A stretch of 64,000 bases of DNA from Verrucomicrobiia bacterium (GTDB lineage Bacteria > Verrucomicrobiota > Verrucomicrobiia > Limisphaerales > UBA1319). Under the pieces are notes generated by a model that worked only from the letters and a program-made list of their open reading frames with translations, was not told where the DNA came from and searched no databases. Numbering within the stretch: the first letter of the stretch is position 1; each line of letters starts with the position of its first letter. Positions 5,297-37,544 of this stretch are shown in pieces. The stretch spans positions 3,584,001 through 3,648,000 of the forward strand of contig OY760937.1 in the NCBI GenBank assembly GCA_963664225.1, read 5' to 3'. The position numbers and the translations under genes are program-made.

Positions 5297-5545
5297 AATT
5301 TTAATTGTTGGAGAACGCTCCCCCCATGGTTCGGTTCGTGCCTGGTTTTCGAATTCGTTTCACCAAACAGCCTGCGGCGACAGTTGCGGTCTCTCGCAGT
5401 TCTGCCTGCTCTTATGATTGTCAGAATCTCACGCCGCCAGCAAGATTGTTTGCGCGCGAGTCGGCCACGCCATTGCGGCGGCGATCGCGCAGGGTTAGGG
5501 TAGGCGGCGGCGCGACCGGTTCCAATGTGGAAAAGGCGGCCGCGA

Positions 5546-8239
5546 ATGAGCCGGTTTCTTGTGAGCGAATTAACCGAAGATAACACGATCGTGATTCGCG
5601 GGGCGCGCGAGCACAATTTAAAGAACATCTCGCTGGAAATCCCGCGCGGCAAATTTGTCGTGGTGACGGGTGTCAGCGGTTCGGGCAAGAGCACGCTGGC
5701 GTTCGATCTGCTGTTTGCGGAGGGGCAGCGGCGGTTTCTGGACGCGATGAATGCCTATGCGCGGCAATTCGTGGAGCAACTGCCCCGGCCGGACGTGGAT
5801 TTGATTTCGGGCATCCCCCCCTCGGTGAGCATTGAGCAGCGCAACAGCCGGGGCGGCGGCAAAAGCACGGTGTCCACCGTGACGGAGATTTACCATTTTC
5901 TGCGGCTGCTTTTCGCGCGTTTGGGAACGACCTACTGCCCGGATTGCCAGTTGCCCGTGGAGGCGCGCACCCGGGATGCGGTGGGCCGCGCGCTGCTCCA
6001 GGAAATGAAAAAGCGCGGAGACCTCCTGCTCCTGGCGCCTGTGGTCAAGAATCGCAAGGGCTTTCATACCGACGTGGCGGCCTGGGCGGCGCGACGCGGT
6101 TATGCGGAAATCCGGGCGGATGGGAAGATGCTGCCGACGAGCGAGGTGCTGCGGATGGACCGCTTCCATGAGCACAACGTGGAGATTGTGACCGGGATTC
6201 TGGAGAGCAAGCGCGGCCACAAGGGCCCCCCGGCGCAGGAGTTGATCGACGAGGCGCTCAAGCTGGGCGGCGGTGTGGTGTATGCGTTGGACAATCACAA
6301 GACGACCACGATGCATTCCACGGAACGGGCCTGCCCCAAATGCAGCCGTTCGTTTGAGCCGCTGGATCCCCGGATGCTCAGCTACAATTCCCCTCGTGGG
6401 TGGTGCCCGCGCTGTCGCGGTTTTGGAGAGCTTTTCTTCCTGCCCGATGTGGAGCGGGGCGCGAACGCCGAGTCCATTGAGGAATCCTGGTATAGCTGGC
6501 AGGAGGGCGAGCGGGAGCCGTGCCCGGAATGCGGTGGCGGACGCCTGAATGCCGTGGCGCGGGCCGTGCGCCTGGACGCGGTCGTGCGCGGTGGTCGGAC
6601 CCCCGGTCCCACGCTGGATCTGCTGGCCGCAATGGATGTGCAGGAAGCGTCGCGGTATTTTGGGAAGTGGCAGTTGACGGGCCGGTCCGCAGCGGTGGCG
6701 CGGGATATCCTGCCGGAAATCTGCGAGCGGCTGAAATTTCTTCGCGAGGTGGGCCTGGGCTACCTGCAACTGGGGCGCGGCGTGACGACCTTGTCCAGCG
6801 GCGAGTCCCAGCGCATCCGGCTGGCGGCGCAACTGGGATCGAATTTAAGCGGGGTGCTCTATGTGCTGGACGAGCCGACCATTGGCCTGCACGCGCGGGA
6901 CAACGAGCAATTGCTGGCCACGCTGGCGGCGTTGCGCGCGCGTGGGAATTCGCTGGTGGTGGTGGAGCATGACGAGGCGACCATGCGCCAGGCCGATCAC
7001 ATCATCGACCTGGGACCCGGCGCGGGCGTGCATGGAGGCGAGGTCGTGGCCAGCGGCACGCTTGCCGAATTGATGCGCCACCCGGAATCGTTGACTGGCC
7101 AGTTCCTGCGGACCAAGCGGACTTATCCCGCGCGGGGCGAGCGCCGTCCTGTGACAGGGCTGAAGAAGATTTCCAAGGATGGCAGTTCTGGTTATGCAGG
7201 CTGGCTGGTGCTTGAAAAAGCGGCGCGGAATAATTTGAAGGACGTGACTGTGGCGTTTCCGCTGAACCGCCTGGTGGTGGTGTCCGGCGTCAGCGGTTCC
7301 GGCAAGAGCACGCTCACTCGCGAATGCCTGCTTCCGGCGCTGGCGGCGAAACTCGGGAATGCAAAGGGCAAATCCGTTCCAAACAACCAGGGTGGCACGT
7401 TGCATGGATGGGAGGCGCTCAAGGCGGTTTATGAAGTCGATCAGGCGCCCATCGGACGCACGCCTCGTTCCATACCGGCGACCTATGTGGGCTTTTTCGA
7501 CGCCATACGGCAGATGTATGCGCAGGTGCCCGAGGCGCGGTTGCGCGGCTACAGTCCAAGCCGGTTTTCATTCAACAGCGCGCAAGGGCGATGTCCCGAG
7601 TGCGAAGGCGCGGGAGTGATCAAACTGGAAATGAATTTTCTGCCTGCGGCACTGGTGCGTTGTGAAACCTGCGCGGGCACGCGGTTCAACCGCGAAACGC
7701 TGGATATTGAATTTCACGGACGGAACATTGCGCAGACGCTCGACTTGAGCGTGGCCGAGGCGATTGATTTCTTCCAGGCGCTGCCCGCGATCCGGCGTCC
7801 GCTTGAGGCGCTGCGCGATACGGGGCTTCATTATTTGAAACTGGGCCAGACCAGTCCCACACTGAGTGGCGGCGAGGCCCAGCGCATCAAACTGGTCACC
7901 CACCTGCTTTCCGGATTCAAGCAGGCGGCCGGGGCGCGTTCCCGCATGGGGGCCGCAGGGTCGTCCCTGTTTTTGCTGGAGGAACCGACCATTGGGCTTC
8001 ACGGGGCCGATGTGGTCAAATTGGTGGAGGTTCTTCAAAGACTACTGGACGCGGGGCACTCGGTCATCGTCATCGAGCACAACCTGGATTTGATCGCCGA
8101 GGCGGATTGGGTGATCGATCTGGGACCGGAGGGTGGGGCGGGGGGCGGAACGGTCGTGGCGTGTGGTCCGCCGGAAATAATCGTGCGAAATAAGGACTCG
8201 CAAACCGGGCGGTTTTTGCGTAATCTGCTCCGTCCATGA
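5546..8239 (+). CDS. uvrA: Excinuclease ABC subunit A family protein
   Basis: GAREHNLKN, two Walker A GVSGSGKST, LSSGESQR and LSGGEAQR signatures, CxxC zinc fingers. Start could be 5525, 5546 or 5561. Confidence 0.93.
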   Translation: MSRFLVSELTEDNTIVIRGAREHNLKNISLEIPRGKFVVVTGVSGSGKSTLAFDLLFAEGQRRFLDAMNAYARQFVEQLPRPDVDLISGIPPSVSIEQRNSRGGGKSTVSTVTEIYHFLRLLFARLGTTYCPDCQLPVEARTRDAVGRALLQEMKKRGDLLLLAPVVKNRKGFHTDVAAWAARRGYAEIRADGKMLPTSEVLRMDRFHEHNVEIVTGILESKRGHKGPPAQELIDEALKLGGGVVYALDNHKTTTMHSTERACPKCSRSFEPLDPRMLSYNSPRGWCPRCRGFGELFFLPDVERGANAESIEESWYSWQEGEREPCPECGGGRLNAVARAVRLDAVVRGGRTPGPTLDLLAAMDVQEASRYFGKWQLTGRSAAVARDILPEICERLKFLREVGLGYLQLGRGVTTLSSGESQRIRLAAQLGSNLSGVLYVLDEPTIGLHARDNEQLLATLAALRARGNSLVVVEHDEATMRQADHIIDLGPGAGVHGGEVVASGTLAELMRHPESLTGQFLRTKRTYPARGERRPVTGLKKISKDGSSGYAGWLVLEKAARNNLKDVTVAFPLNRLVVVSGVSGSGKSTLTRECLLPALAAKLGNAKGKSVPNNQGGTLHGWEALKAVYEVDQAPIGRTPRSIPATYVGFFDAIRQMYAQVPEARLRGYSPSRFSFNSAQGRCPECEGAGVIKLEMNFLPAALVRCETCAGTRFNRETLDIEFHGRNIAQTLDLSVAEAIDFFQALPAIRRPLEALRDTGLHYLKLGQTSPTLSGGEAQRIKLVTHLLSGFKQAAGARSRMGAAGSSLFLLEEPTIGLHGADVVKLVEVLQRLLDAGHSVIVIEHNLDLIAEADWVIDLGPEGGAGGGTVVACGPPEIIVRNKDSQTGRFLRNLLRP

Positions 8240-8950: not shown

Positions 8951-10585
8951 ATGAAACGATTTCCTAAATATCCGGGCAAAATCCCTCAGTTGATGTGGAT
9001 TTGCGCGCTCTTATTCGCGACCGCAAACCGCCTGTCGGCTTTCGACACGGGGACGCACTTGAAGGGTATTCACCCAGGCGGGATGCCGCCCCAGCCGATC
9101 ATCACTTCCCTGAACCAGACGGGGCAGAATTTCACAATGACATGGGACGGTTTCAACGGTCCCTATCGGATTGAGGCCACCACCAACCTGCATGCGGGCC
9201 AATGGGAACTGATTGGTAGCCCCACCTATTTTTCGTCCAACACTTTCCAGGCTCCAAACCCGGCGATGGGCGTGATCCGCATTTCCGGTCCGGCGCCGAT
9301 CTTTGCCGGGGCGACCAACTGCACGACCTGCCACAAAAGCGTTCATACGGACTGGATGGGCACCACGCATGCGATTGCGCTGGAATCCCTGAAAAGGATC
9401 GGCATGGGGAACAACGCGTCGTGTCTGCCGTGCCACACCGTCGGTTATGGGCTTTCCACCGGTTTCAAAGATGAGGCCACCACGCCGCAGTTTGCGGGGG
9501 TGCAATGCGAGAATTGCCACGGTCCGGCGGCCGATCACGCCGCCAATCCAGCCGATCCGCTGACCATTCCGCGCAAGGAGATCGCCTCCACATTGTGCGG
9601 CGGCTGCCATTCGGGCGTCAACCATCCGACCTATGAGGAATGGTCGAAGTCCGGTCACGTTCGTGTCACGACCGTGCCGGCGGCCTATTTCTTAAATACC
9701 GATACCAACACCAGCGTGGCGCGGATGAATACCTGCGGTCCCTGCCATTCGGGGGCGGTGCGCCTCTCCATGATCGATGGTCGGCCATTGCCGTCGCCTG
9801 CAGAAGCCGCCGAGGTGGCCATCAATTGCATCATTTGTCACGAGCCTCATAAATCGACGGTCAACGGCCATCGCCTGCGCAGTCCTGAATACTCGACCAA
9901 TTTCTTTTCCTACAACACCGCCGCCACTTTTGCCTCGCAATACAATCCGGAAATCAACATGTGCGGCCAATGCCACAACGCGCGTGGCGCCAAAGTGACG
10001 GACAGCTCGCGTCCTCCGCACGGTTCTCCCCAATACAATATCCTGTTGGGTAATATCGGCGTGACGAACAACAATAAGCCGATTATGTCCCCGCACTGGA
10101 AGATTTCCAATCAATGCGCCCATTGCCACATGCAGCAGCGCACTGTGGATCATCCCACCGTGGAGAATCCGGTTCTCACCGGGCATTCCGCCCGGGTGGT
10201 GACCCTGGACACCTGCTTGGAGTGCCATGATTCGCCCCAGGATACGATGGATACGGTTCAAACGGACATCATCGCGCACATTTACATGATCAAGGGTTTG
10301 CTCGACCAGTGGGGCAAAACCAAGTCCAATCCCGCGCTGCGCGCAAAATACGGAGCGTTGGCCTGGGAATACACCGCAGCGGGTCCGCTCTCGAGTCCGG
10401 ATGGCTCCCTTTCAGGTCCCAGCGGCACCGAGCAGGGGCTCATAACACAGCCGATCAAGGATGCGCGCTTTAACCTGTATCTAATCGATCTGGACGGCAG
10501 TTATGGCGTGCATAACTCGGGGTATTCGTATTATTTGCTCAAGGTGGCCGAGGACAAAGTCAGGGCCGAATTGGCGAGGCCTTAG
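8951..10585 (+). CDS. Exported nonaheme c-type cytochrome with NrfA/HAO-superfamily-like helical C-terminus
   Basis: Signal peptide. Nine CxxCH (CTTCH, CLPCH, CENCH, CGGCH, CGPCH, CIICH, CGQCH, CAHCH, CLECH). C-terminal ARFN...DGSYGVHN. No CxxCK. Confidence 0.85.
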   Translation: MKRFPKYPGKIPQLMWICALLFATANRLSAFDTGTHLKGIHPGGMPPQPIITSLNQTGQNFTMTWDGFNGPYRIEATTNLHAGQWELIGSPTYFSSNTFQAPNPAMGVIRISGPAPIFAGATNCTTCHKSVHTDWMGTTHAIALESLKRIGMGNNASCLPCHTVGYGLSTGFKDEATTPQFAGVQCENCHGPAADHAANPADPLTIPRKEIASTLCGGCHSGVNHPTYEEWSKSGHVRVTTVPAAYFLNTDTNTSVARMNTCGPCHSGAVRLSMIDGRPLPSPAEAAEVAINCIICHEPHKSTVNGHRLRSPEYSTNFFSYNTAATFASQYNPEINMCGQCHNARGAKVTDSSRPPHGSPQYNILLGNIGVTNNNKPIMSPHWKISNQCAHCHMQQRTVDHPTVENPVLTGHSARVVTLDTCLECHDSPQDTMDTVQTDIIAHIYMIKGLLDQWGKTKSNPALRAKYGALAWEYTAAGPLSSPDGSLSGPSGTEQGLITQPIKDARFNLYLIDLDGSYGVHNSGYSYYLLKVAEDKVRAELARP

Positions 10586-10697
10586 CGCCCGTTTTATTAA
10601 ACAATGGACTCAGGGCTGAGAACTTAACGCGACGCATGCGGCCATGATTCCGGCGCATTGCGCGCAGGACGTGCCGCAACCAGTACAAATCACATTT

Positions 10698-11534
10698 ATG
10701 GGGAAAATCAAAAGGAATTGGAAAAGTCTTCTGGCATCGGCGCTGCTGGTGGCATCAGCGGCTTTTCTGGTTGTTTCCTGCGAAACGGTGCATCGAACCG
10801 TGGTGGTGCCGCCCAACATTCCAGGGGCGACTTTTGTGGGTTCGGATGCCTGCGCGCAATGTCACGAGAACATCACCCGGGACTTTCCCACGGCCACGCA
10901 TGCGCGATTGCGGGCGCAGGGGACCAACGCGTTCAACATGGGCTGCGAGTCCTGCCACGGACCCGGCAGTCTCCATGTGGAATCGGCGGGTGAGCGCAAA
11001 CTCTCCACAAACTTCAGCCCCGGCCAGCCCAGGGTGCGCTCGGGCAGCCAGCGGCAAACCATCGTCAATCCCCGGCGCAATGCGGACAACTGCTTCGACT
11101 GCCATCTGGACAAGCGGGGCCAGTTCGAATTGCCCAACCATCATCCTGTCCCTGAAGGCAAGGTGAGTTGCGGCGATTGCCATGACCCGCACAAGGGCCC
11201 GGCGGTCAAGGAGGGTGGAACCTCCCTGCTTTCAGAGAACGAGACCTGTGTGAAGTGCCATACGGCACAGCGCGGGCCTTTCGTGTTCGAGCACGAGGCC
11301 ATGCGGGAGGGCTGCATCACCTGCCACGATCCTCATGGAACGGTAAACGCCAAAATGCTGACCAGCCGCAACAGCACACTCTGTCTTAAGTGTCATTTCC
11401 AGCAGGTTCAGGGCGGGCGGATTTTGATCGGTGGATCAGACCATTCGCTGCGGTTATCCCAGGGCACCTGTTGGACGGGTGGCTGTCATGAGGCCATTCA
11501 TGGTTCCCAAGTCAATTCATCGCTGCGGTTTTAA
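10698..11534 (+). CDS. MtrA/DmsE-like multiheme cytochrome c (7 CxxCH + 1 CX4CH), probable lipoprotein
   Basis: CESCHGPGSLH, HHPVPEGKVSCGDCHDPH, GPFVFEHEAMREGCITCHDPHG are MtrA/DmsE-type segments. Terminal CWTGGCHEAIHGS. Lipobox-like VVSC. Confidence 0.85.
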   Translation: MGKIKRNWKSLLASALLVASAAFLVVSCETVHRTVVVPPNIPGATFVGSDACAQCHENITRDFPTATHARLRAQGTNAFNMGCESCHGPGSLHVESAGERKLSTNFSPGQPRVRSGSQRQTIVNPRRNADNCFDCHLDKRGQFELPNHHPVPEGKVSCGDCHDPHKGPAVKEGGTSLLSENETCVKCHTAQRGPFVFEHEAMREGCITCHDPHGTVNAKMLTSRNSTLCLKCHFQQVQGGRILIGGSDHSLRLSQGTCWTGGCHEAIHGSQVNSSLRF

Positions 11535-11548
11535 CCCTTGGAAAACAC

Positions 11549-13825
11549 GTGAAAACCATCCAACCCCATCCGGCACTCTGGTCGCGCCTCAAGCGGTGGA
11601 GCCGTTTCTGTCTGGCCGCCTGTTTGCTGAGTCCCCTGGGCGCGTGCGCTGATGACGCCGCCGCAGATGCCAAAAAGCCCGCGGACGCCGCCAAGCCGGC
11701 CGCCGCCGCGCCTGCCGAACCGGCTGCCGCCGACAGCGCAAAGACTCCTGCCGCGCCAGAAACCAAGCCTGCGGACGCAACAGAGGCCAAGCCGGCCGCC
11801 ACTCCCGCAGACGCGGAGAAAAAAAAGGATTCCGCCGAGGCTGAAAAGCCCGCCGAAACCACCGATGAAGGTGTGCCGCAGTTTAACAACTGGATGGAGT
11901 TTTCCACAGGCGGGGTCATCTCCGACGGCAACGGGGCGGCGTTTCGCCAGCGGCACTGGATCAAGGACGATCCGTTTGGCGGTCTTGAGGACATGCACTA
12001 CGAGACCAAGGTCGGGAAAAAGGACTTTTTCCAAATCGACGGCCGGGCCTTGTTCGACAACCACGATTACAACGTCCGGATGGAATTGGTCCGTCCCGAC
12101 TTCGGTTTCGTTCGTGGCGGTTTCACCGAATATCGCACCTGGTATGACGGCAATGGCGGATTTTTCCCCGCAACCGGCACGTGGATGAATTTGTTCGACG
12201 ACGCCCTGCATGTGGACCGGGGCGAGGCGTGGATCGAGACCGGATTGAATCTGCCCAAGTATCCGAGCATCACGCTCAAATACAGTCATCAATTTCGCGA
12301 GGGCCAGAAGGACTCCACCGCGTGGGGCTATGCGCATCCGTATGGAGCGGGTCCGGTGCGCGGTATTGCGCCATCGTTCTGGGATCTCGATGAGACGCGG
12401 GACACCGTGCAGATCGATTCGAAATACACCATCAAAAAGACGGACCTGGGCATCGGCCTGCGCTATGAAAGGACGGATGACAATAACGCCCTGAAATCGG
12501 TTCAGTGGCCCGGAGAAAGCACCCAGACATTCATGACCCAGAAAGAGGGGGTGAAGTCCGATTTGTTCAATGTCCACGCCTTTACCGAAACCCGGCTGAA
12601 CGAAAAAGTGCGTTTCTCCTCCGGCTATTCCTTCACCACCATGGACACGGACCTGTCCGGCAGCCGTGTTTACGGGGCGGATTACGATGTCGGCTACAGC
12701 ATGCCTCTGGCCACCTCCCTGGGCTACCTGGCGCTGACCGGCGGCAGCCAGTTGAACGATTACCTCATGAACCTGAACCTCATGTGGACTCCGGTGAAGT
12801 CGTTTTCCATCGTGCCTTCTCTGCGTGTCGAAAAGCAGGAGTTGGACAGCGTGTCGTCGTTTCTTCAAACCGGTGGCGGCTCGATCATGAACGACCAGCA
12901 AATGGGCGCCGCCAGCGCGCGCAATCTGCTGGAAGTGGCCGAGCGGCTTGAGATGAAATATACCGGGGTCACCAATTGGGTGTTTTACGCCCGGGGCGAC
13001 TGGACGGAAGGGGACGGCGATTTGCGCGAAAACGGCGGCGGCGGTCTGTCGGGTCCCATTCTGCGTTTCACAAAAGATGAACGCTTTATTCAGCGCTATA
13101 CGGCGGGGGCCAACTGGTATCCCTTGCGCCGATTGAACGTCGATTTCCAGTATTACCACAAGATGCGGGATAATGATTTCGATCACCAGATCGACAACAC
13201 GCCCAATGACAGCACGGAACGTTATCCGGCCTACCTGTTGGTTCAAAATTTTGAAACAGACGATGCCAACATGCGCGTCACGGTGCGCCCGCTCAACAAT
13301 GTGACACTGGTCTCGCGCTATGACTTCCAGCTATCGAGCATCAACACCACGCCGGATTCCATTTCCGGCCTGGGCGATGTGCAAAGCTCGGAGGTTGAAT
13401 CGCATATACTGGGGCAGAACGTCACCTGGGTGCCCTGGAAACGGCTGTTCTGGCAGGGAGGCATCAATTATGTCTGGAGCAAGACCTCCACTCCTGCGAG
13501 CCAATACACGCAGGCGGTGCTGGATTCGCAGAATAATTACTGGGACCTGAGTTCCACCGCGGGCTTCATCATCGATGACAAGACCGATCTGCAGGCCCAC
13601 TACTTCTTTTATCGCGCGAATAATTACGAAGGGCCATCCGCTTATATTCCATACGGAGCGGGCGCCCGGGAGAACGGTGTGACCCTGACCCTGACCCGGA
13701 AACTCCGTGAGAATTTGCGGATCACCTGCAAATACGGTTACTTCGATTACACCGATGAAACCTCCGGCGGCCACAACGACTACGCGGCGCACCTGATCTA
13801 TACGAGCCTGCAATATCGGTTCTGA
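11549..13825 (+). CDS. MtrB/PioB-like outer-membrane beta-barrel porin with Ala/Pro/Lys-rich N-terminal linker
   Basis: Signal peptide, ~70-aa PAK-rich linker, long amphipathic beta pattern rich in Y/F/W, C-terminal beta-signal YTSLQYRF. Lies directly after the MtrA-like gene. Confidence 0.8.
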   Translation: MKTIQPHPALWSRLKRWSRFCLAACLLSPLGACADDAAADAKKPADAAKPAAAAPAEPAAADSAKTPAAPETKPADATEAKPAATPADAEKKKDSAEAEKPAETTDEGVPQFNNWMEFSTGGVISDGNGAAFRQRHWIKDDPFGGLEDMHYETKVGKKDFFQIDGRALFDNHDYNVRMELVRPDFGFVRGGFTEYRTWYDGNGGFFPATGTWMNLFDDALHVDRGEAWIETGLNLPKYPSITLKYSHQFREGQKDSTAWGYAHPYGAGPVRGIAPSFWDLDETRDTVQIDSKYTIKKTDLGIGLRYERTDDNNALKSVQWPGESTQTFMTQKEGVKSDLFNVHAFTETRLNEKVRFSSGYSFTTMDTDLSGSRVYGADYDVGYSMPLATSLGYLALTGGSQLNDYLMNLNLMWTPVKSFSIVPSLRVEKQELDSVSSFLQTGGGSIMNDQQMGAASARNLLEVAERLEMKYTGVTNWVFYARGDWTEGDGDLRENGGGGLSGPILRFTKDERFIQRYTAGANWYPLRRLNVDFQYYHKMRDNDFDHQIDNTPNDSTERYPAYLLVQNFETDDANMRVTVRPLNNVTLVSRYDFQLSSINTTPDSISGLGDVQSSEVESHILGQNVTWVPWKRLFWQGGINYVWSKTSTPASQYTQAVLDSQNNYWDLSSTAGFIIDDKTDLQAHYFFYRANNYEGPSAYIPYGAGARENGVTLTLTRKLRENLRITCKYGYFDYTDETSGGHNDYAAHLIYTSLQYRF

Positions 13826-18442: not shown

Positions 18443-18762
18443 AAAGAGCCATGCGGGGACATTCCGCGTATATGTTTGTATTTTACTGAGGTCCAATTGG
18501 ATACAGCCTGCGATTCAGGCGTGGCAACGGGACTGCGCACATCCGCAAACACCAAACCGCCCGGTGTCAGCCGATGGAGCTTGTCGTATGGTCTGGCAGA
18601 ACTCATGCGCAATAAAAAACGTGGACGATCTCGCGAGTCTGCCTCGCCGGGCTCGCGTTGGCAATATGGGAATAAGCGTCCCATTGGAAATTTAGAAACT
18701 AATCCATCGGGCGGCTGCGTACTGAATTGACAGGTCGGCCCGTGTCTGACACCAAGGTGGGC

Positions 18763-20100
18763 ATGGGCCAAAATCAAAATTCCGCATGTATTATCAGACC
18801 GGTCCGCGCCACCAGGCTATTGCTGTCGCTGGTTCTATTGGTACTAATGGCGCTGCCGGTCGCGCTGCAGGCCCAATTCACTTATACGAGCGATAACGGA
18901 CTCCTCACCATCACGGGATATACCGGCACCAATACCGCGGTGACCATTCCGGACGTCATCGACAGTCAGCCGGTCAACATCATCGGGACTTGGGCGTTCG
19001 CCTATAACACCGGTCTGACCAGCGTCACCGTGCCCAACAGCGCCACGGCCATCGAGGAATGGGCCTTTTATGGATGCACCCTGTTTAGCGTCGGGATCGG
19101 CAACAACGTCACCAACATCGATAACAACGCATTCTATAGCTGCACCAATCTGGTCAGCGTCACGATGGGCAACAGCGTCCGCATCATTGGAAACTCGACT
19201 TTTGCCGGTTGCACAAACTTGGGCAGCATCACAATCCCCGCCAGTGTCACCAGCATTGGAAACTCCGCCTTCGCCGGCTGCACCGCCCTGACCAATGTCT
19301 ATTTTTTAGGGAACACCCCCACCATCGGTTCGTCTGTGTTCAACGGGGATACCAATGCAACCGTCTATCACATCCCCGGGACAACGGGCTGGACCCTGAG
19401 CTTTGGGAACCGGCCAACCGCCTTGGGCAACCCGCTGGCGCCCCAGTCGCAATTCAATTACACAACCAACAGCGGGGCCATTACCATTAGCCGCTACATT
19501 GGCGCGGATGGTGCGGTCACCATACCGGAGAAAATCAATAACCTGCCGGTCACCAGCATTGGAATCGGAGCATTCGCCTACAACGCCGGGCTGGTCAGCA
19601 TCAAAATCCCCAACAGCGTCACCAACATCTCGGATTGGGCGTTTTATAGCTGCGCTCATCTGACCACTGTCACGATGGGGAATGGCGTCGTCCGCATGGG
19701 TGAATCCGCGTTCAATCGCTGCGTCGGGCTGAAGAGCTTCTATTTCCACGGCAGCCCTCCCGTCCTGGGTCCCTCTGTGTTCGTGGGGGTCAAAGGCGCC
19801 ATGGTCAATTACATGCCGGAGGCCACGGGTTGGGGCGATACCTTTGGCGGTTTTCCAACCCAGTTGTGGAATCCGGTGTTGTTGTCCAGAGATGGCAATG
19901 TTGGCGTGGTGAACAATCAATTTGGCTTCAACATCATTGGCAACAGCAACCTTGTCGTCGTCGTGGAAGCCTGCACCAATCTGGCCAATGCCACCTGGTC
20001 CGTCGCGGGTACCACCACCCTGGACGGGAGCACCTTCCATTTCATCGACCCCTTGTGGGACAATTATCCCGCCCGCATTTACCGTCTGCGCACCCCGTGA
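18763..20100 (+). CDS. BspA-type leucine-rich repeat (LRR_5) surface protein
   Basis: Repeats IPxSVTSIGxxAFxxCxxL. Signal peptide ending LQA-Q. C-terminal VEACTNL...W...RIYRL domain. Confidence 0.9.
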   Translation: MGQNQNSACIIRPVRATRLLLSLVLLVLMALPVALQAQFTYTSDNGLLTITGYTGTNTAVTIPDVIDSQPVNIIGTWAFAYNTGLTSVTVPNSATAIEEWAFYGCTLFSVGIGNNVTNIDNNAFYSCTNLVSVTMGNSVRIIGNSTFAGCTNLGSITIPASVTSIGNSAFAGCTALTNVYFLGNTPTIGSSVFNGDTNATVYHIPGTTGWTLSFGNRPTALGNPLAPQSQFNYTTNSGAITISRYIGADGAVTIPEKINNLPVTSIGIGAFAYNAGLVSIKIPNSVTNISDWAFYSCAHLTTVTMGNGVVRMGESAFNRCVGLKSFYFHGSPPVLGPSVFVGVKGAMVNYMPEATGWGDTFGGFPTQLWNPVLLSRDGNVGVVNNQFGFNIIGNSNLVVVVEACTNLANATWSVAGTTTLDGSTFHFIDPLWDNYPARIYRLRTP

Positions 20101-22630: not shown

Positions 22631-23045
22631 CAGGTTGGGAGGAATGGGTTGTCGGAGCCACATAAGGAGATTTTGGCGGAACGTTCGTTCAGTTCGTTGG
22701 AATCGGTTTTGGCGAGGTCCGGGGCGGGGACCAGATGTATTCAGGGTCATCCATTGCATATCCACTTTTGATCTGCATTTCCCTATTGTCCAGCCAAATT
22801 AAGTTTGCTGCATTTGTTTGTCATGCATCCGGCTGATCCATCTGGCCTTTCGCCGATACCGTCACCCCTCAGCTCCAATCTCAGTGGACAGCGGCAGAGC
22901 TTGTCGCAGGCATGAGAAGAACGGCCTTTTTGGAAAAATTGCATTGGGCCAATGACAGAATTCAGGAGTGAGGAGTGGTATGACCCAGCCGGCGCATTTA
23001 CTTGAAATACCAACCCGCCTCTGCGCATCCTGCAATCAGTTGAGC

Positions 23046-24365
23046 ATGGGTAAAAAACAATTTCCGGGTAATTCTGTCAGCGCCGACCGTCCAAAGGCCG
23101 TCTGCGCCGCGCGCGGGCTTTCAAGAACTGCGGATTTCACAAGGTTGCTGCTGCTCCTGATACTTTTGCTGTCCTTGCCCATGGCGCTCCAGGCCCAATT
23201 CAATTACACAACCAATGGTGGTGAGATCACCATTACGGGATACACCGGTGAAGGTGGTGCGGTGGCCATTCCCGACATAATCGATGGTCTGCCGGTAACC
23301 TGTATCGGCGATTGGGCATTTGAATACTGCGGCAGTCTAACCAACATTACTCTGGGCAACCATGTTGCCAAACTCGGAGACTGGGCATTCTATGGCTGCT
23401 ACAACTTGACCTCGTGCGTGATCCCAAACAACGTCACCAGCATTGGATTCAACTGTTTCTCTTCCTGCATCAGACTGACCAACTTTGTGATCTCAAGCGG
23501 TTTGACAAACATTGAAGCTCCCGTGGTCTCTGGCTGCTCAAGACTGCGTGCAATCACTGTCGATGCCTTTAACCCCTCCTATTGCAGCATAGACGGAGTC
23601 TTGTTCAACAAGAGCCTGACCACGCTCGTTGAATGCCCGCCACTATTAATGATGCCCTGCACAATACCCGACAGCGTTACCACCATCGGAAGCAGTGCAT
23701 TCGCTGGATGCGGCTCCATGACCAGCATCACGATTCCTGACAGTGTTAATATAATTGGTGGCAGCGTTTTTGCAGATTGTGCCAACCTGACCAACGTTTT
23801 CATAGGAAACGGCGTGACCAACATCGCATACAGTGCGTTCTCTGGCTGTTGGAGCCTGAAAAGCATTATAATTCCTGACAGTGTTTCCAAAATTGGAGCT
23901 GGGATATTCAAAGACTGTATCAGCTTGACCACCGTCATTTTTGGCAAAAATGTCAGGTTTGCTGCAACGCCGATGTTTTCTGGCTGCACCCGCTTGGCCA
24001 GTGTCTATTTCAAAGGTAATGCCCCCTTTGTTGATCCACATATGTTTGACCATTTATATTATGTAACAGTCTATTATTTGCCTGGCACCACCGGTTGGAG
24101 TTCAGGATTCGCAGGCCGTCCGGCCAAATTGTGGAATCCGCATCCGCTCACGACGGATGCCAGTTTTGGCATGCGAACGAATCAATTCGGTTTCACCATC
24201 GCTGGCACCACAGGAATTACGTTCGTCGTGGAAGCCTGCACCAATCTGGCCAATCCCACCTGGTTTCCAGTGCAAACCAACACCCTGTATGGCGACACGG
24301 CTGATTTCAGCGATCCCGCGTGGACGAACAGCCCCTCCCGTTTCTACCGTTTCCGCGCCCCGTAA
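23046..24365 (+). CDS. Second BspA-type LRR surface protein (paralog of 18763-20100)
   Basis: IPDSVTTIGSSAFAGC repeats, the same LQA-QF.YT N-terminus and VEACTNL...RFYRFRAP C-terminus. Confidence 0.9.
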   Translation: MGKKQFPGNSVSADRPKAVCAARGLSRTADFTRLLLLLILLLSLPMALQAQFNYTTNGGEITITGYTGEGGAVAIPDIIDGLPVTCIGDWAFEYCGSLTNITLGNHVAKLGDWAFYGCYNLTSCVIPNNVTSIGFNCFSSCIRLTNFVISSGLTNIEAPVVSGCSRLRAITVDAFNPSYCSIDGVLFNKSLTTLVECPPLLMMPCTIPDSVTTIGSSAFAGCGSMTSITIPDSVNIIGGSVFADCANLTNVFIGNGVTNIAYSAFSGCWSLKSIIIPDSVSKIGAGIFKDCISLTTVIFGKNVRFAATPMFSGCTRLASVYFKGNAPFVDPHMFDHLYYVTVYYLPGTTGWSSGFAGRPAKLWNPHPLTTDASFGMRTNQFGFTIAGTTGITFVVEACTNLANPTWFPVQTNTLYGDTADFSDPAWTNSPSRFYRFRAP

Positions 24366-32414: not shown

Positions 32415-35400
32415 ATGCGATACACGCGACTCAAAGTGCTCGCGCTGGCGCTCGGGATGGCTGGGTTAGCCACCTTCGGGGCCAAAGCAGCGGGCGAGGT
32501 GTTCATAGACGCAGATATTGGAGCCCCGACTTTTGTGGGTTCATCGACCGTATCTGGCACTCAAGTAACCATAAAAGGCGGCGGTTCCGATATTTGGGAC
32601 AGTGCGGATCATTTCCATTATTATTACACCGTTAAAGACGGCGGTTTCGATGTCATTGTGCGGGTCGTTGACCTTCAGGGTCCGGATAATTGGACCAAGT
32701 TTGAAATCATGGCGCGCGAAGCGCTGGATGACGGCACAGGAACCCTGGTTCCCGCAGCCGGTGATCGCCACGTCAGCTTGATGACCACTCGCGCGGCCGG
32801 TCAAAACCAGATTGGTCTTCAGGATCGTCTCGTCAGAGATGGCGGCTCGGGCAATCCTGGCAGCACGGCGACTCCCTCCTATCCCAATACATGGCTGCGT
32901 CTCACCCGTTCGGGTGCCGTGATCTATCTGTATAACGGAACAGATGGCGTAAACTGGAATGCGTTGGGTAATGTGGACACCAGCGTGACCGCCGGTGGCG
33001 CCTTCCCCAGCAAATTGCTCCTCGGTTTTGCCGTCACAGCGCATAACGACGGGGATGTGAACGGTGCGACCGCCGTGATCGACAACGTGCAATTCCTGGT
33101 TGCTCCGCCGGAAGTCACCGCTTCCACTCCGGCCAACCATGCTTCCTACGTGAGTCCTTCCACCAGTTACGCCTTCACGATGAAATCCGTGCCAGGCGTG
33201 GACGTGACCAACATTGTCTTCAAGGTCAATGGCGTGGACAAGAGCTCTTCGTTGACGTTCACTGGAACACCCAATGAGCGCATTGGAACTTACCCTGGTC
33301 CGTTCGTCGAGAATCAGGTCTATAATTTCCAGATCACCCTCAAGGATGTCACCGGTCTTTCGAGCACCGCCAACCTCTCTTTTGACACCTTCCTGCAAAC
33401 CAACTACAGCGTTGAAGCCGAGGATTTCAACTTCAGTGGCGGCCAATATGTGGATAATCCTCCCATTGGCTCGCTTTCTCCTTATGCGCCCGCGATCGGC
33501 ACGCCCAACATCGACGAGTTTCGTCCTGATACCGGTGGTAATCACGATTACCGCACCTTCACAGATGTCAACGGCATAACGACCTCAGATGTCGTCGGTG
33601 TGCGCGTGCGGCCCGGCAACGAGATCCTGCGCAAAGCTTATGTGGATGCTGCGGTTAGCGATCCCCTCGCCGAAGATTACATCGTCGGCTGGCTCGCTAA
33701 CACCGAATGGCTCAATTACACCCGCACATTCCCGGCCGGCACATACCAGATGTATGCCCGTATCGCGCATGGTGACGGCAATGGCTCGGTCAACCGCATG
33801 GACTGGGTGACCAGTGGTGCGACCACCGCCAACCAGGTCACCGCTCCGATGGGTATCGTCCAAGGCCCCACAACCGGTTCTTATGATGTCTTCACCTTCA
33901 CTCCGTTGACGGATGCAGTGGGCAACAAGCTCGTTCAGCGCATTACCGCTGGTGTCAAAACCATGCGTTATACCAAGCTCTCGGGCGGATGCGACATGAA
34001 CTTCTTCTCGTTTGTGCCCGTGGCTGATCCCGGCACCCTGGCCCCGTTCCTGTCTTCCGTTTACCCGACGCCCAACCTGACGGGTGTCAGCCCTGTGGCG
34101 GATATCACAGCCTCGATCACGGATCGCGACACCAAGGTCAATTCCGCCAGTGTTCAATTGATCATGGACGGAACCAACGATATCACTGCTGGATTGGTGA
34201 AAACCACCGTGGCCAGCGGGTTGAACCTGACCTATTCCTCGACGAACATCTATCCCGCCAGCAGCGTGCATACCCTGACGCTGATCTATGCGGATAATGC
34301 GGCCACGCCGAACAAGTTCACCAACACCTGGCAATATACGATCACGGGCGGTTACACCATTCTGCCCGCCTCAATCGCCCTGCCTGTGGGCAGCGGCCAA
34401 ACCCCTGGTTTCACGACCCGCCTGGTCCAGACCAGCACCGGCAGCGCGAACACGACAGCGTTCACCGAAGAAGAACTGATGGGCGTCTATCCCATCATTT
34501 ACAGCTCGGCGGATTTCACTGCCCAGGTGATCAATTATAACGGCAATGGCAGCTCCGGCAACTTCGCCAACGACACGCTCTTCTCGACGGCGTTTGGTGC
34601 GGCCATTGTGGACGCCAGCGCAGCCAACCTGGCCACGGAAACCGTGACCTATCTCGCCCTCAAACGCGGCTTCTACCGCATGGGTGTGAACAGCGATGAC
34701 GGCTTCCGCGTGACTGCGGGCACCCTCCCTGGCAATACCGCCATCAAGGTCGGTACCGTCCTCGGAGAATACAGCGGTGGCCGTGGCGTTGCAGACACGG
34801 ACTTCGACTTCGTCGCCCCGTTGGACGGCGTCTATCCGTTCCGCCTTGCCTATGAACAGGGCGGTGGCGGTTTCGGCTTCGAGTGGTTCTCGGTGGATCC
34901 CGTGAGCGGCGTTCGCACGCTGATCAACGATTCGGCCAGTGCGACCTCGATCAAGGCCTATCGTTTCAGCTCCGGGATGCCGCAGAATGTCGTCACCATT
35001 GTGAGCAATCTGCCTCCGACGCTGCCGGTGGTTGAAAACACCAAGCTCTCGCTCTCCGCGACAGCCACGGCGTCCCTCTTCGGGGACACCATCACGAACA
35101 ACGTCCTGTTCGTCTATCACTGGACCCGGGACGGCGCTGAAATCGTGGGCGATACCGCCATCAAGGGCACATCCGGCCCGATCTTGAGCATCGACCTAGC
35201 CCAACTCTACCAGGGCGGTCTCTACCAGTGCGAAGTTTCGCTTCCTGGTTTCCCGTCCATCAAGAGCGTCGCCTGCCAGGTGACCGTGGCGGCTGATACC
35301 ATCATTCCCACTGTGACCTCCATCAGCGGCAACGGCGCGTTGAACAGCATCACGATCAACTTCTCGGAGCCTCTCAATGCGGGCACGCTGGTCGCCTCGT

Positions 35401-37544
35401 CCTTCTCGGTCGATGGCGGGCTTACGATTACAGGTGTGACGCCGACCGTGGATCCCAACACGGGCAACACCATGCAGGTGGTTCTGTCCACCATTCCTCA
35501 GACCGAAGGCAAGCGCTACACGGTCAACATCAACAACGTGACCGACAGCGTTGGCAACACGATGGTCAATGTGAAGGCGTCCTTCAACGCCTATATCACG
35601 GATCCCACAGTCAAGATGCTCTGCGAGTTCTATGATAACATCGGCAGCATCGCCGCCCTGCAGGCCAGCGCGAAATTCCTCGCCGACATTCCGGATCGGG
35701 TTACTCCCGCGCCTGACTTCCAGACACCGACTTGGGAAAACGGTTCGACCTATGGTGGCCGCCTGGCCTCCGTGGTGACGGCTCCTGTCACAGGAAACTA
35801 TGTGTTCCACCTCGCCACTGACGACGGCGGTCAGCTCTATGTCAGCCAGGATGAGACTCCGGGTAACTGGGTTCTCGCTGCGGATGGCGTGACGACCTTT
35901 GTGGCCTCTGTTACGAGCTGGACCAATCAACGCGAGTGGGGAAATGCCTCCTCGATTCCTTCGGCTCCGATCCCCCTGGTTGCGGGCAAGAAGTACTACA
36001 TCGAAGCGCTCTGGAATGAGGGCGGCGGCGGCGACGGTTGCGCGGTTGGCTGGGCGATCCCCGGTAACACGAACATCGTCGTCATCCCTGCCAGCGCCAT
36101 GGGCGCCCAGAAAGTGGATATCAGCAACGCCAAGATCATGATCGGCCAGCAGCCTGTGGCTCTGACGGTCGCTGAAAACGGCGCTGCGAGCTTCTCGGTC
36201 ACCGTGACCAATGCCGTTTCGCAGTTCAGCACCAATGCAGCGGTGGACTATCAATGGCAGAAGAATGGCGCGAATGTGGCCGCGAATGGCAACAGCGCCA
36301 CTTACAGCATTGCAGCGGCTGCGCTGGCTGATAGTGGGGCCACCTTCCAGGTCATCATGCATGTGCCCGGCCTGAGCGTGACCAGCGCTCCTGTCGTGTT
36401 GACGGTGACCAAGGATTCGACCGCCCCGGTGGCCGTTTCCGCGGGAACATTGGCTACCGCGCCCACAACCGTGGGTGTGCTGTTCAGCGAGTTCGTGGAT
36501 ACTGCCAGCGCGCAGACCATCGCGAACTACACGGTCTCCGGTGCGACCGTCACCAGCGCGACACTCCTGCCCAGCGGCAAGGCGGTGGCACTGGCATTGA
36601 ACGCGGCTGTCGTGAGCGGCGCCACGGTCAAGGTTGAGAATGTCAAGGATATGGCGGCCACGCCTAATACGCTGGCTTCCACGACGCTGACAATCGCCTT
36701 CAACGACCTGACATCCAAGGATGTGGGCACAGTCAACACGACCAACAGCGCGCTCTTCACCGATCCCATCTATGTGGGTTCGACAGTGGCGCTCGGTAAT
36801 GGTGCGTTCGAAGTGAAAGCCGGCGGTACCGACATCTGGGATGTTCGCGATGGTTTCCACTTCACCTATAAAGAAGTGACCGGTGACTTCGAAGCGAAGG
36901 TTCGCGTCGAGAGCCTCCTGATCACCTCCACTTGGACGAAGGCTGGTTTGATGGTTCGCGAATCGCTGGATGCCGGCTCACGCAACCTCAACACAGTGGT
37001 GGATCCGACAGCGGGCGCCAACGTCTGGGAGCCGAACTACCGCGCCGAAACCAATGGCGCCAGCTCCGGATGGCCGGGTGAAATCGCCCGCGTCAGCCCG
37101 GTGACCTATCCCGACGCCTGGATCAAGCTCAAACGCGAAGGTCAGGTCATGACCAGCTTCAAGAGCACCAATGGCGTGGATTGGGTGACCCTGGCCACCT
37201 ACACCAACACGTCCACCACCAACCCATACCCGGCGAAGATGCTGGTGGGTATGTGCGTGACGGCTCATGACAACGGCGGCACGAACACCGTCGCCGAACT
37301 CCGTGACTACACCTTGACAACAGGTGGAACCGTCGAAGTGCCGACCATCACGGTCAGCCGCGTGAAGCCCAATATGGTCATCACGTGGGATGCCGCGAAG
37401 GGTGCTGGCTTCCAGCTCTACAGCGCGCCGACGATCAAGGGAACGTGGGCCGTGGAAGAGACGTCTCCTGTGACCGCCAACGGCGTGGTTACCGTGACTC
37501 TGCCGACGACCGAAGACAAGCGGTTCTTCCAACTTAAAAAGTAA
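32415..37544 (+). CDS. 1709-aa secreted multidomain surface protein/adhesin (beta-sandwich lectin-like ends, CBM-like, two PA14, Ig-like domains)
   Basis: Signal peptide. Duplicated GG(S/T)DIWD..D.FH domain at both ends, VEAEDF CBM-like module, PA14 motifs NSDDGF and ATDDGG, QWQKNG Ig module, C-terminal RFFQL tail. RBS AGAGGA. Confidence 0.82.
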   Translation: MRYTRLKVLALALGMAGLATFGAKAAGEVFIDADIGAPTFVGSSTVSGTQVTIKGGGSDIWDSADHFHYYYTVKDGGFDVIVRVVDLQGPDNWTKFEIMAREALDDGTGTLVPAAGDRHVSLMTTRAAGQNQIGLQDRLVRDGGSGNPGSTATPSYPNTWLRLTRSGAVIYLYNGTDGVNWNALGNVDTSVTAGGAFPSKLLLGFAVTAHNDGDVNGATAVIDNVQFLVAPPEVTASTPANHASYVSPSTSYAFTMKSVPGVDVTNIVFKVNGVDKSSSLTFTGTPNERIGTYPGPFVENQVYNFQITLKDVTGLSSTANLSFDTFLQTNYSVEAEDFNFSGGQYVDNPPIGSLSPYAPAIGTPNIDEFRPDTGGNHDYRTFTDVNGITTSDVVGVRVRPGNEILRKAYVDAAVSDPLAEDYIVGWLANTEWLNYTRTFPAGTYQMYARIAHGDGNGSVNRMDWVTSGATTANQVTAPMGIVQGPTTGSYDVFTFTPLTDAVGNKLVQRITAGVKTMRYTKLSGGCDMNFFSFVPVADPGTLAPFLSSVYPTPNLTGVSPVADITASITDRDTKVNSASVQLIMDGTNDITAGLVKTTVASGLNLTYSSTNIYPASSVHTLTLIYADNAATPNKFTNTWQYTITGGYTILPASIALPVGSGQTPGFTTRLVQTSTGSANTTAFTEEELMGVYPIIYSSADFTAQVINYNGNGSSGNFANDTLFSTAFGAAIVDASAANLATETVTYLALKRGFYRMGVNSDDGFRVTAGTLPGNTAIKVGTVLGEYSGGRGVADTDFDFVAPLDGVYPFRLAYEQGGGGFGFEWFSVDPVSGVRTLINDSASATSIKAYRFSSGMPQNVVTIVSNLPPTLPVVENTKLSLSATATASLFGDTITNNVLFVYHWTRDGAEIVGDTAIKGTSGPILSIDLAQLYQGGLYQCEVSLPGFPSIKSVACQVTVAADTIIPTVTSISGNGALNSITINFSEPLNAGTLVASSFSVDGGLTITGVTPTVDPNTGNTMQVVLSTIPQTEGKRYTVNINNVTDSVGNTMVNVKASFNAYITDPTVKMLCEFYDNIGSIAALQASAKFLADIPDRVTPAPDFQTPTWENGSTYGGRLASVVTAPVTGNYVFHLATDDGGQLYVSQDETPGNWVLAADGVTTFVASVTSWTNQREWGNASSIPSAPIPLVAGKKYYIEALWNEGGGGDGCAVGWAIPGNTNIVVIPASAMGAQKVDISNAKIMIGQQPVALTVAENGAASFSVTVTNAVSQFSTNAAVDYQWQKNGANVAANGNSATYSIAAAALADSGATFQVIMHVPGLSVTSAPVVLTVTKDSTAPVAVSAGTLATAPTTVGVLFSEFVDTASAQTIANYTVSGATVTSATLLPSGKAVALALNAAVVSGATVKVENVKDMAATPNTLASTTLTIAFNDLTSKDVGTVNTTNSALFTDPIYVGSTVALGNGAFEVKAGGTDIWDVRDGFHFTYKEVTGDFEAKVRVESLLITSTWTKAGLMVRESLDAGSRNLNTVVDPTAGANVWEPNYRAETNGASSGWPGEIARVSPVTYPDAWIKLKREGQVMTSFKSTNGVDWVTLATYTNTSTTNPYPAKMLVGMCVTAHDNGGTNTVAELRDYTLTTGGTVEVPTITVSRVKPNMVITWDAAKGAGFQLYSAPTIKGTWAVEETSPVTANGVVTVTLPTTEDKRFFQLKK

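What the first reader, a model, noticed from the sequence alone, without database searches (positions are those of the whole stretch)
8951..13825. Non-canonical porin-cytochrome conduit: nonaheme + octaheme MtrA-like lipoprotein + MtrB-like barrel
Seen: three co-oriented genes encode an exported 9-CxxCH cytochrome, an MtrA/DmsE-like cytochrome and a beta-barrel ending YRF. Established: MtrAB/PioAB/MtoAB modules carry electrons across the outer membrane, and MtrAB pairs with a decaheme MtrC/OmcA. Inference: the partner here is not MtrC-like. It has an NrfA/HAO-superfamily-type helical tail without CxxCK, reminiscent of the nine-heme surface reductase OcwA of Thermincola. This may be a distinct extracellular electron-transfer system in a probable polysaccharide-fermenting verrucomicrobium that also has PFOR and hyp genes.
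Basis: partly seen in the sequence, partly recalled or inferred. Interest (0 to 1): 0.82.

Follow-up and report, generated by a model that had tools for sequence, protein, structure and literature searches.

The report
Verrucomicrobial outer-membrane electron conduit
Three neighbouring genes encode a likely protein wire that carries electrons out of the cell of a soil- and peat-type bacterium; the gene cluster is already in print, but its outermost cytochrome carries an uncatalogued domain that may mark it for the cell surface.

Summary
The three genes encode an OcwA-fold nonaheme (model vs OcwA Z 18.0), an eight-heme MtrA homologue with an invariant lipoprotein cysteine, and a 26-strand unplugged barrel whose best fold match is MtrB (Z 22.3) with no sequence match. 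In 84 Limisphaerales-order genomes with a full-length nonaheme, 67 have it linked to the porin. He et al. 2017/2019 list porin/7-heme/9-heme runs, a 2026 preprint describes Limisphaerales 'EET4' and mentions OcwA-like cytochromes, and iron-reducing Limisphaera isolates carry such a trio. The addition here: the nonaheme begins with an uncatalogued ~70-residue domain found in 150 proteins of this genome, mostly at the C-terminus of surface-type proteins. An MtrC-like decaheme and other porin-neighbouring cytochromes carry it too, and among relatives it alternates with a lipoprotein anchor. This favours a surface location over the published 'periplasmic' label. Earlier scan notes saw this domain in other genomes and the paralogous porin locus here, but not this trio. 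Function, location and binding remain untested.

The parts
8951..10585 (+). Gene A: OcwA-fold nonaheme cytochrome c, 544 aa; predicted Sec/SPI signal (about residues 1-30); proposed outer terminal cytochrome
   Evidence: 115 of 120 top homologues have nine CxxCH
9083..9292 (+). N-terminal FN3-like beta-sandwich of A (about residues 45-114), a member of the uncatalogued 'RFYR' terminal domain family found in 150 proteins of this genome
   Evidence: independent seed, E 4.8e-7; FN3-like fold matches Z about 7.5; no Pfam or NCBIfam hit
9290..9853 (+). Cytochrome c554-like module of A (hemes 1-4; residues 114-301 align with c554 1-179)
   Evidence: rows 25-26 (Z 8.8, rmsd 2.4, 113 aligned)
9572..10582 (+). 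NrfA-like module of A (hemes 5-9 plus three-helix bundle; residues about 208-544), without CxxCK
   Evidence: rows 3-11 (Z about 15)
9620..9625 (+). Position of OcwA's His-His pair over heme 2; Asn224-His225 in this copy, His at 224 in 100 of 116 and at 225 in 95 of 116 homologues
10019..10024 (+). Position of OcwA's His-His pair over heme 5; His357-Gly358 in this copy (the only Gly among 116; His in 99)
10698..11534 (+). Gene B: eight-heme MtrA homologue (7 CxxCH + CX4CH), predicted lipoprotein (Cys28 at 10779-10781), 16 invariant His = eight bis-His hemes; proposed trans-membrane wire
   Evidence: (6R2Q_A E 5e-29)
11549..13825 (+). Gene C: outer-membrane barrel, 758 aa; signal peptide, Ala/Pro/Lys-rich linker, then a 26-strand unplugged barrel from about nt 11891; MtrB fold
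   Evidence: TM 0.67, E 6.7e-16; Z 22.3, rmsd 3.7, 572 aligned

Best explanation
The operon encodes an Mtr-type outward electron conduit of Limisphaerales, with an OcwA-type terminal cytochrome in the place of MtrC. (1) Electrons from sugar or H2 oxidation reach the quinol pool and leave it through a NapC/NirT-family multiheme, a CymA analogue. Inferred: this gene lies 2.1 Mb away here but beside the porin in 21 of 40 relatives' loci. (2) They pass to lipoprotein B, tethered by its N-terminal Cys, whose eight bis-His hemes run through barrel C. The homology and barrel fold are shown; the insertion is inferred from MtrAB. (3) Nonaheme A, exported by Sec, matured in the periplasm and then probably displayed on the surface, takes electrons from the outer end. 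It passes them to humic quinones, Fe(III) or electrodes, with two probable open-site hemes (2 and 5) giving OcwA-like side activity on nitrite or hydroxylamine. The fold and ligand pattern are shown by alignment; location, contact and substrates are inferred. B+C is the fixed core and A is one of several interchangeable accessory cytochromes.
For: Barrel: 26 strands, no plug, best match MtrB by a clear margin (Z 22.3 vs 16.2). It shares MtrB's short first strands and the helix between strands 1 and 2 (vs PMC7198977 passage). B is an MtrA homologue lacking one heme pair and keeping the six C-terminal hemes; MtrA's ten hemes span 80 A against a 40 A membrane. B is next to the porin in 38 of 40 fetched loci; the other two are cut at the edge. 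A is linked to the porin in 68 of 89 full-length matches, 55 in this order. A matches OcwA and OmhA, both surface reductases, best. The terminal domain of A is shared with surface-type proteins, with an MtrC-like decaheme that lacks MtrC's lipobox, and with other cytochromes near porin genes in 5 of 20 order loci. NapC/NirT neighbour. CcsA-type maturation genes and seven secretin matches are present. Cultured Limisphaera respire ferrihydrite and carry a porin/6-7-heme SPII/9-heme trio (PMC13608581). Related clusters are transcribed in peat (bioRxiv 2026).
Against: No protein of this family has been localised, purified or deleted. PMC13608581 labels the 9-heme protein 'periplasmic'. A is dispensable to the porin pair: 51 of 130 genomes with a close porin showed no full-length A (some have fragments or divergent forms), and none of 20 loci outside the order had an A orthologue. 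16 of 89 copies of A are on a different contig from the porin, and 5 are in genomes with no close porin listed. The role of the terminal domain is unknown. The strictly aerobic type species L. ngatamarikiensis also has the trio, with the middle gene listed as partial. The direction of electron flow is not fixed by these genes, since MtoAB and PioAB run inward. This copy has lost one His of each OcwA His-His pair.
Confidence: 0.62

Rival explanations
1. B+C is a two-part conduit like MtoAB/PioAB, and A is a periplasmic partner: a relay between the inner-membrane quinol oxidoreductase and B, or a periplasmic nitrite/NO/hydroxylamine/sulfur reductase fed by the same pool.
For: A has a Sec/SPI-type signal and no lipobox (lipobox-like motif in 7 of 120). 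PMC13608581 Table S5g calls it periplasmic. It has an NrfA/HAO-superfamily fold with two probable open hemes, and OcwA itself reduces nitrite and hydroxylamine. This genome has no multiheme ORF with CxxCK and no full-length NrfA match. Many genomes have B+C without A.
Against: The N-terminal domain is shared with Ig, cadherin, LRR, LamG, CotH, ice-binding and beta-helix proteins. It is absent from this genome's NapC-like, small pentaheme, HAO-like and B-type cytochromes (present in 3 of 13 cytochromes with four or more CxxCH). Limisphaera has a true NrfA as well as the trio. The closest solved relatives are surface proteins.
Confidence: 0.22
2. The conduit runs inward: the trio harvests electrons from reduced humics, Fe(II) or partner cells, with A as the surface collector.
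For: Homologous MtrAB cores serve Fe(II) oxidation (MtoAB, PioAB; PMC6344600 passage). The paralogous porin in this genome carries an N-terminal monoheme domain.
Against: The only physiology on record for carriers is Fe(III) reduction. OcwA and OmhA are reductases. The usual neighbour is a NapC/NirT-type protein, although these can be reversible (own knowledge).
Confidence: 0.1
3. A is surface-attached or released but does not dock on B+C. It works as a free-standing reductase or shuttle-recharging enzyme and is merely co-regulated.
For: Unlinked and duplicated copies exist (two in tandem in L039). The terminal domain is a generic module rather than a porin-binding one (150 carriers).
Against: Gene linkage is kept through several rearrangements (before B, directly after C, or a few genes away).
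Confidence: 0.06

Closest known systems
Verrucomicrobial porin-multiheme cytochrome cluster of He et al. 2017/2019 (PMC5615132, PMC6344600) and 'EET4' of Limisphaerales (bioRxiv 10.64898/2026.05.27.727921)
   Same: Porin of 20 or more strands beside an eight-heme cytochrome, sometimes with an extracellular multiheme. Table S2 lists consecutive porin/7-heme/9-heme loci in two subdivision-3 MAGs. The preprint's Fig. 4B legend lists MtrA-like and 'OwcA-like' cytochromes with 8-13 hemes and assigns EET4 to Limisphaerales.
   Different: Sequence identity to those loci could not be checked. The preprint's main text does not say which cluster has the OcwA-like protein, and its supplements are closed. 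The passages read do not mention the N-terminal domain, the lipoprotein Cys of B or the active-site residues.
Limisphaera porin/MHC/9-heme locus (PMC13608581, Table S5g)
   Same: Three consecutive accessions: porin with 26-28 strands, Sec/SPII MHC with 6-7 motifs, Sec/SPI 9-heme MHC. A second locus has a porin with one N-terminal heme motif, as in this genome.
   Different: The paper calls the 9-heme protein periplasmic and the porins unrelated to MtrB. The model here gives MtrB as the best fold match.
MtrCAB of Shewanella (PDB 6R2Q); MtoAB/PioAB
   Same: 26-strand unplugged barrel plus an MtrA-homologous bis-His heme chain, adjacent genes.
   Different: Eight hemes instead of ten; B is a lipoprotein; the barrel has about 12% identity, no family HMM hit and no N-terminal CxxC (0 of 120); the third protein is OcwA-fold, not MtrC, and not a lipoprotein.
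OcwA of Thermincola potens (PDB 6I5B; PMC6703420) and OmhA of Carboxydothermus (6QVM)
   Same: Nine hemes, c554 module fused to an NrfA module, three-helix bundle, no CxxCK, seven distal ligands leaving hemes 2 and 5 open, His-His pairs conserved in most family members.
   Different: Diderm host with a porin partner; His instead of Met at the heme-9 ligand position; OcwA's inserted beta-sheet domain between hemes 1 and 2 is missing; extra N-terminal beta-sandwich; this copy has Asn-His and His-Gly at the two pairs.
T9SS C-terminal domains of Bacteroidota (analogy only, recalled)
   Same: A small terminal beta-sandwich shared by over a hundred exported proteins of one genome.
   Different: No Pfam or NCBIfam T9SS-tail hit; also found at mature N-termini or internally (16 of 151 domains not C-terminal); the SprA search was uninformative.

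Membership tests
MtrAB/MtoAB/PioAB | Decaheme MtrA/DmsE cytochrome | tested here: not met
   Eight hemes; TIGR03508 167.2 bits vs cut-off 192.2; homology to 6R2Q_A E 5e-29
MtrAB/MtoAB/PioAB | 26-strand barrel without plug, MtrB fold | tested here: met
   Predicted model, pLDDT 91, 26 long strands; best match 6R2Q_B
MtrAB/MtoAB/PioAB | Barrel belongs to the MtrB/PioB sequence family | tested here: not met
   No MtrB/PioB hit in Pfam or NCBIfam at E 0.01; the profile of 117 homologues finds nothing in PDB at E 10
MtrAB/MtoAB/PioAB | Cytochrome gene directly upstream of the porin gene | tested here: met
   14-nt gap; adjacent in 38 of 40 loci
MtrAB/MtoAB/PioAB | Cytochrome sits inside the barrel and conducts electrons | not testable with these tools
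MtrCAB | Surface decaheme lipoprotein MtrC/OmcA in the operon | tested here: not met
   A has nine hemes, no TIGR03507 hit, OcwA fold, no lipobox. An MtrC-like decaheme lies elsewhere in the genome (181 vs 209 bits)
OcwA-type nonaheme | Nine CxxCH, c554 + NrfA modules, three-helix bundle, no CxxCK | tested here: met
OcwA-type nonaheme | Hemes 2 and 5 five-coordinate under His-His pairs | tested here: inconclusive
   Seven conserved non-motif His fit the other seven hemes; both pairs intact in 65 of 116 homologues by motif search (15 had no first-site match); this copy has Asn-His and His-Gly; no heme-bound model
OcwA-type nonaheme | Heme 9 His/Met | tested here: not met
   His382 (109 of 116) aligns where OcwA has Met before heme motif 8; the ligand assignment is inferred from NrfA homology (recalled)
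OcwA-type nonaheme | Inserted beta-sheet domain (OcwA 75-156) between hemes 1 and 2 | tested here: not met
   9 residues here against about 85 in OcwA between the aligned blocks (domain described)
OcwA-type nonaheme | Cell-surface location and Fe(III)/shuttle/electrode reductase activity | not testable with these tools
   Indirect support only
NrfA nitrite reductase | CxxCK active-site heme and catalytic Tyr | tested here: not met
   No CxxCK in 120 homologues; invariant Arg345 where NrfA has Tyr (NrfA position recalled); PF02335 18 bits vs cut-off 24.1
Verrucomicrobial PCC (He 2017) / EET4 | Porin of 20 or more strands plus adjacent eight-heme cytochrome | tested here: met
Verrucomicrobial PCC (He 2017) / EET4 | Third, 9-heme cytochrome gene in consecutive order in subdivision 3 / Limisphaerales | tested here: met
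   Table S2 rows 50-51 and 80-81; Table S5g rows 3-5; homologue labels name Limisphaerales and subdivision 3
Verrucomicrobial PCC (He 2017) / EET4 | Sequence identity to the published loci | not testable with these tools
   Locus tags and accessions cannot be fetched here; bioRxiv supplements are closed

The most novel reading that the evidence does not exclude
The ~70-residue terminal beta-sandwich is a lineage-specific, position-independent surface-display or export tag, probably read by a type II-like secretion machine, that replaced the lipid anchor on outer cytochromes. Limisphaerales would then run a modular electron-export system: one fixed octaheme-porin core with swappable tagged heads (OcwA-type nonaheme, MtrC-type decaheme, other 8-9-heme types). 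The nonaheme would be a bifunctional surface enzyme with two open hemes, recreating an NrfB-to-NrfA-like pairing across the outer membrane.
Probability: 0.35. Interest if true: 0.72.

Novelty: new member of a known kind. Interest (0 to 1): 0.45.

Why it matters
Limisphaerales are abundant sugar degraders in peat, soils and humic lakes. If this conduit lets them respire humic matter or iron, it diverts carbon from methane to CO2, a long-standing gap in peatland budgets (argued in PMC5615132 and the 2026 preprint). Cultured iron-reducing Limisphaera carrying such a trio now make this testable. The analysis adds three concrete points: the porin is a remote MtrB homologue rather than an independent invention, the nonaheme keeps OcwA's two open-heme sites in a diderm host, and an uncatalogued domain may decide which cytochromes reach the surface.

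Tried and rejected
Complex prediction of B (28-278) with A (40-544): score 0.00, verdict 'no answer'; this is no evidence either way, and B in C was not modelled. Expression: one RNA run held a 0.05 share; its short contigs are mostly under 95% alike and come from relatives, so they show nothing about transcription here. Promoter and terminator scans found nothing above shuffles (4 vs 2.5 and 4 vs 6.7). The SprA search rang in no control genome and is uninformative. The phylum-wide sample found no full-length nonaheme in 300 genomes, 7 partial matches only; the sample is dominated by other orders. The single-protein locus scan gave only 3 loci. The second 9-CxxCH ORF at genome 2.54 Mb is not a paralogue (no A1 hit). 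A lipobox-like motif in C's signal is not conserved (12 of 120; absent in an 89%-identical relative), so C is not called a lipoprotein. A 20-residue insert in B tracks gene order but also kinship and was not used. The ESM Atlas gave only unnamed Verrucomicrobiota clusters for the N-terminal domain (score 0.91). The maximum-likelihood tree timed out and was replaced by FastTree. Two paper searches for a description of the terminal domain found none; they cover only the open library. A look-up of earlier scan notes by sequence found nothing for A.
Full report
Observation. The window holds three co-oriented genes at 8951-10585 (A, 544 aa), 10698-11534 (B, 278 aa) and 11549-13825 (C, 758 aa). A has nine CxxCH and no CxxCK, against about 0.03 expected by chance; 115 of the 120 best homologues also have nine. 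B has seven CxxCH and a final CX4CH. C ends in Phe, like 120 of 120 homologues. The window is from a closed 5.78-Mb genome. Source labels of the homologues name Verrucomicrobia subdivision 3 / Limisphaerales. PFOR and HypF are confirmed.

Gene C. No family model names it (only a sub-threshold Porin_O_P hit; none), and a profile of 117 homologues finds nothing in PDB sequences. The model of residues 101-758 (pLDDT 91) shows 26 long strands and no plug. The unmodelled N-terminus is a signal peptide and a low-complexity linker. MtrB of 6R2Q is the best match (Foldseek E 6.7e-16, TM 0.67; Z 22.3, rmsd 3.7, 572 aligned, 12% identity, next best 16.2). MtrB is described as having 26 strands, shorter first four strands and a helix between strands 1 and 2 (PMC7198977, passages); the model has the same features. 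I infer remote homology.

Gene B. It is an MtrA homologue (E 5e-29), below the DmsE cut-off. Its last six hemes align with MtrA hemes 5-10 and its first two with an N-terminal pair, so one pair is missing. In 24 homologues the lipobox Cys and 16 His are invariant, which fits an N-terminally lipidated protein with eight bis-His hemes. By proportion to MtrA's 80 A, eight hemes would span roughly 60 A, enough for a 40 A membrane (inference).

Gene A. Best hits by sequence, profile and fold are OcwA (6I5B) and OmhA (6QVM), then NrfA and octaheme nitrite reductases (model pLDDT 92.6; OcwA Z 18.0, rmsd 2.8, 327 aligned, tied within 1 with OmhA at 17.1). OcwA is a c554 module fused to an NrfA module, with open hemes 2 and 5 under His-His pairs and a His/Met heme 9, and it reduces iron, nitrite and hydroxylamine (PMC6703420, passages). 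A has seven conserved non-motif His (140, 196, 236, 300, 382, 412, 521), leaving two hemes without a sixth ligand. Both His-His positions are conserved in the family, intact in 65 of 116 by motif search. This copy has Asn-His and His-Gly; the Gly is unique among the 116. Differences from OcwA are His at the heme-9 ligand position, loss of the inserted beta-sheet domain and an extra N-terminal domain. Ligand assignments rest on alignment and recalled NrfA/c554 patterns, not on a heme-bound model.

Conservation. A matched 100 of 301 genomes of the order and C 222 of 301, including a distant paralogue. I kept 89 of the 112 A matches (23 partial, contig-edge or divergent ones dropped) and the 131 closest C matches (179 weaker ones were not listed). 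Of the 89, 55 have this gene order with a gap of about 1 kb, 5 follow the porin directly, 8 lie within 20 kb, 16 have the porin on another contig and 5 have no close porin; 67 of 84 genomes are linked. Kin are not independent. 51 of 130 porin genomes had no full-length A. In 20 order loci and 20 loci from other orders, B is adjacent to C in 19 and 19; the two exceptions are cut at the edge. A NapC/NirT-family multiheme (PF03264 over cut-off for the copy in this genome) is nearby in 9 and 12 of them. No A orthologue occurs in the 20 outside loci; two have a different 9-heme protein. B+C is thus the class-wide core (80 of 301 genomes) and A an accessory found here only within the order.

The terminal domain. 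Residues about 45-114 of A fold as a small FN3-like sandwich with no Pfam or NCBIfam match. A profile of it led to 151 domains in 150 ORFs of the genome, 135 within 25 residues of the C-terminus, with no hit at that threshold among reversed ORFs. A search seeded independently from the LRR protein at 18727-20100 recovered A (E 4.8e-7) and scored 88 of 116 homologues above 15 bits. 122 of 135 C-terminal carriers have a signal-like hydrophobic stretch and 2 a later TM-like segment, against 859 and 382 of 1938 background ORFs; this is a crude test, and the background includes spurious frames. Of 20 random carriers, 16 had Pfam hits: Ig, cadherin, LRR, lamin-tail, LamG, CotH, ice-binding, beta-helix, MBG, PD40, carboxypeptidase-regulatory and one cyclophilin. 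Among this genome's 13 cytochromes with four or more CxxCH, three carry the domain: A, an MtrC-like decaheme with the domain after its signal peptide and no lipobox, and a 9-heme PKD protein. In 5 of 20 order loci another 8-10-heme cytochrome near the porin carries it, one of them only weakly. Among 87 nonaheme-core relatives with intact N-termini, automatic labels gave 58 domain, 18 lipobox, 5 both and 6 neither. After I relabelled 9 rows by reading their N-termini the counts were 61, 21, 0 and 5. The FastTree puts 59 domain-bearing rows on one side and all lipoproteins on the other, with two domain-bearing rows among the lipoproteins. Some labels rest on the family profile rather than the independent one, and the root is arbitrary. 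The pattern suggests that the domain does the job of the lipid anchor. Three earlier scan notes describe the same domain at C-termini in other genomes; they are AI notes, not support.

What is in print. He et al. 2017 (section 12 read) describe a novel Verrucomicrobia porin with an adjacent eight-heme cytochrome, in several cases with an extracellular multiheme. He et al. 2019 Table S2 (the first 30 of 50 matching places seen) lists consecutive porin/7-heme/9-heme loci in two subdivision-3 MAGs. The 2026 preprint (sections 9 and 12 and passages; supplements closed and likely decisive) describes EET4 in Limisphaerales, names MtrA-like and 'OwcA-like' models, reports multimer models and transcription in peat. 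PMC13608581 (passages, section 22, Table S5 rows) reports the first Fe(III)-respiring Verrucomicrobiota and tabulates a porin/SPII MHC/9-heme trio, calling the last periplasmic. I could not compare sequences, but taxon, order, heme counts and signal types agree. Searches for a description of the terminal domain found none.

Mechanism and verdict. Most likely (0.62) electrons flow from quinol through a NapC/NirT-type protein to B inside C, and on to surface-displayed A, which reduces humics or Fe(III). Folds, ligand pattern and linkage are shown; insertion, location, contact and substrates are inferred. The rivals are a periplasmic A (0.22), inward flow (0.10) and an undocked A (0.06). It works like MtrCAB with an OcwA-type head, fails strict membership of either family, and is best filed as a new member of the published verrucomicrobial porin-cytochrome clusters. 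Interest 0.45; the tag hypothesis (probability 0.35) would merit about 0.72.

Noticed in passing
L002:9538-12909 (G000:C1:5436510-5439908): Second octaheme-lipoprotein plus porin pair; this porin carries an N-terminal Planctomycete-type monoheme domain (PF07635) and has no nonaheme beside it. The adjoining genes look like a PrsK/PrsR two-component pair and polysaccharide export genes (recalled likeness).
   Followed up: partly
L005:8776-11229 (G000:C1:4008775-4011285): Stand-alone MtrC/OmcA-like decaheme (TIGR03507 181 bits, below cut-off) without lipobox, with the terminal domain at its N-terminus; its homologue in L037 lies directly after a porin-octaheme pair.
   Followed up: partly
L007:10566-12044 (G000:C1:5722565-5724103): NapC/NirT-family multiheme (6 CxxCH plus one atypical motif) with N-terminal membrane helices; candidate quinol oxidase for the conduit.
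   Followed up: partly
L003:6088-9081 and L004:7225-9663: Two related 9-heme cytochromes with Ig or PKD/cadherin stalks, one ending in the terminal domain; probable further surface cytochromes.
   Followed up: no
L006:7791-9305; L009:6539-8920: HAO-like octaheme (PF13447) and an octaheme-TPR protein elsewhere in the genome.
   Followed up: no
window 18727-20100, 22968-24365, 32415-37544: Three more proteins in this window (two BspA-type LRR, one of 1709 aa) end in the same uncatalogued terminal domain.
   Followed up: partly
G000:C1 (seven places): Seven secretin matches; one (63396-64016) lies about 1 kb from a gene carrying the terminal domain (65257-67275).
   Followed up: no
L027, L028, L079, L084, L086: Relatives place 9- or 11-heme cytochromes (cytochrome b-fused in the two scanned, L027) with the NapC-like gene next to the porin pair, suggesting a full inner-to-outer membrane chain in one cluster.
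   Followed up: partly
P0276, P0303 and relatives: A sub-clade of the nonaheme family with mostly eight CxxCH and 600-1250 aa, some labelled PKD-domain, which may have lost one heme site.
   Followed up: no
window 5525-8239 and L002:1-2204: Both porin-cytochrome loci of this genome lie within 10 kb of a UvrA-like gene (recalled likeness); probably coincidence.
   Followed up: no
window 63364-63999: IS1380-family transposase fragment at the window's end.
   Followed up: no
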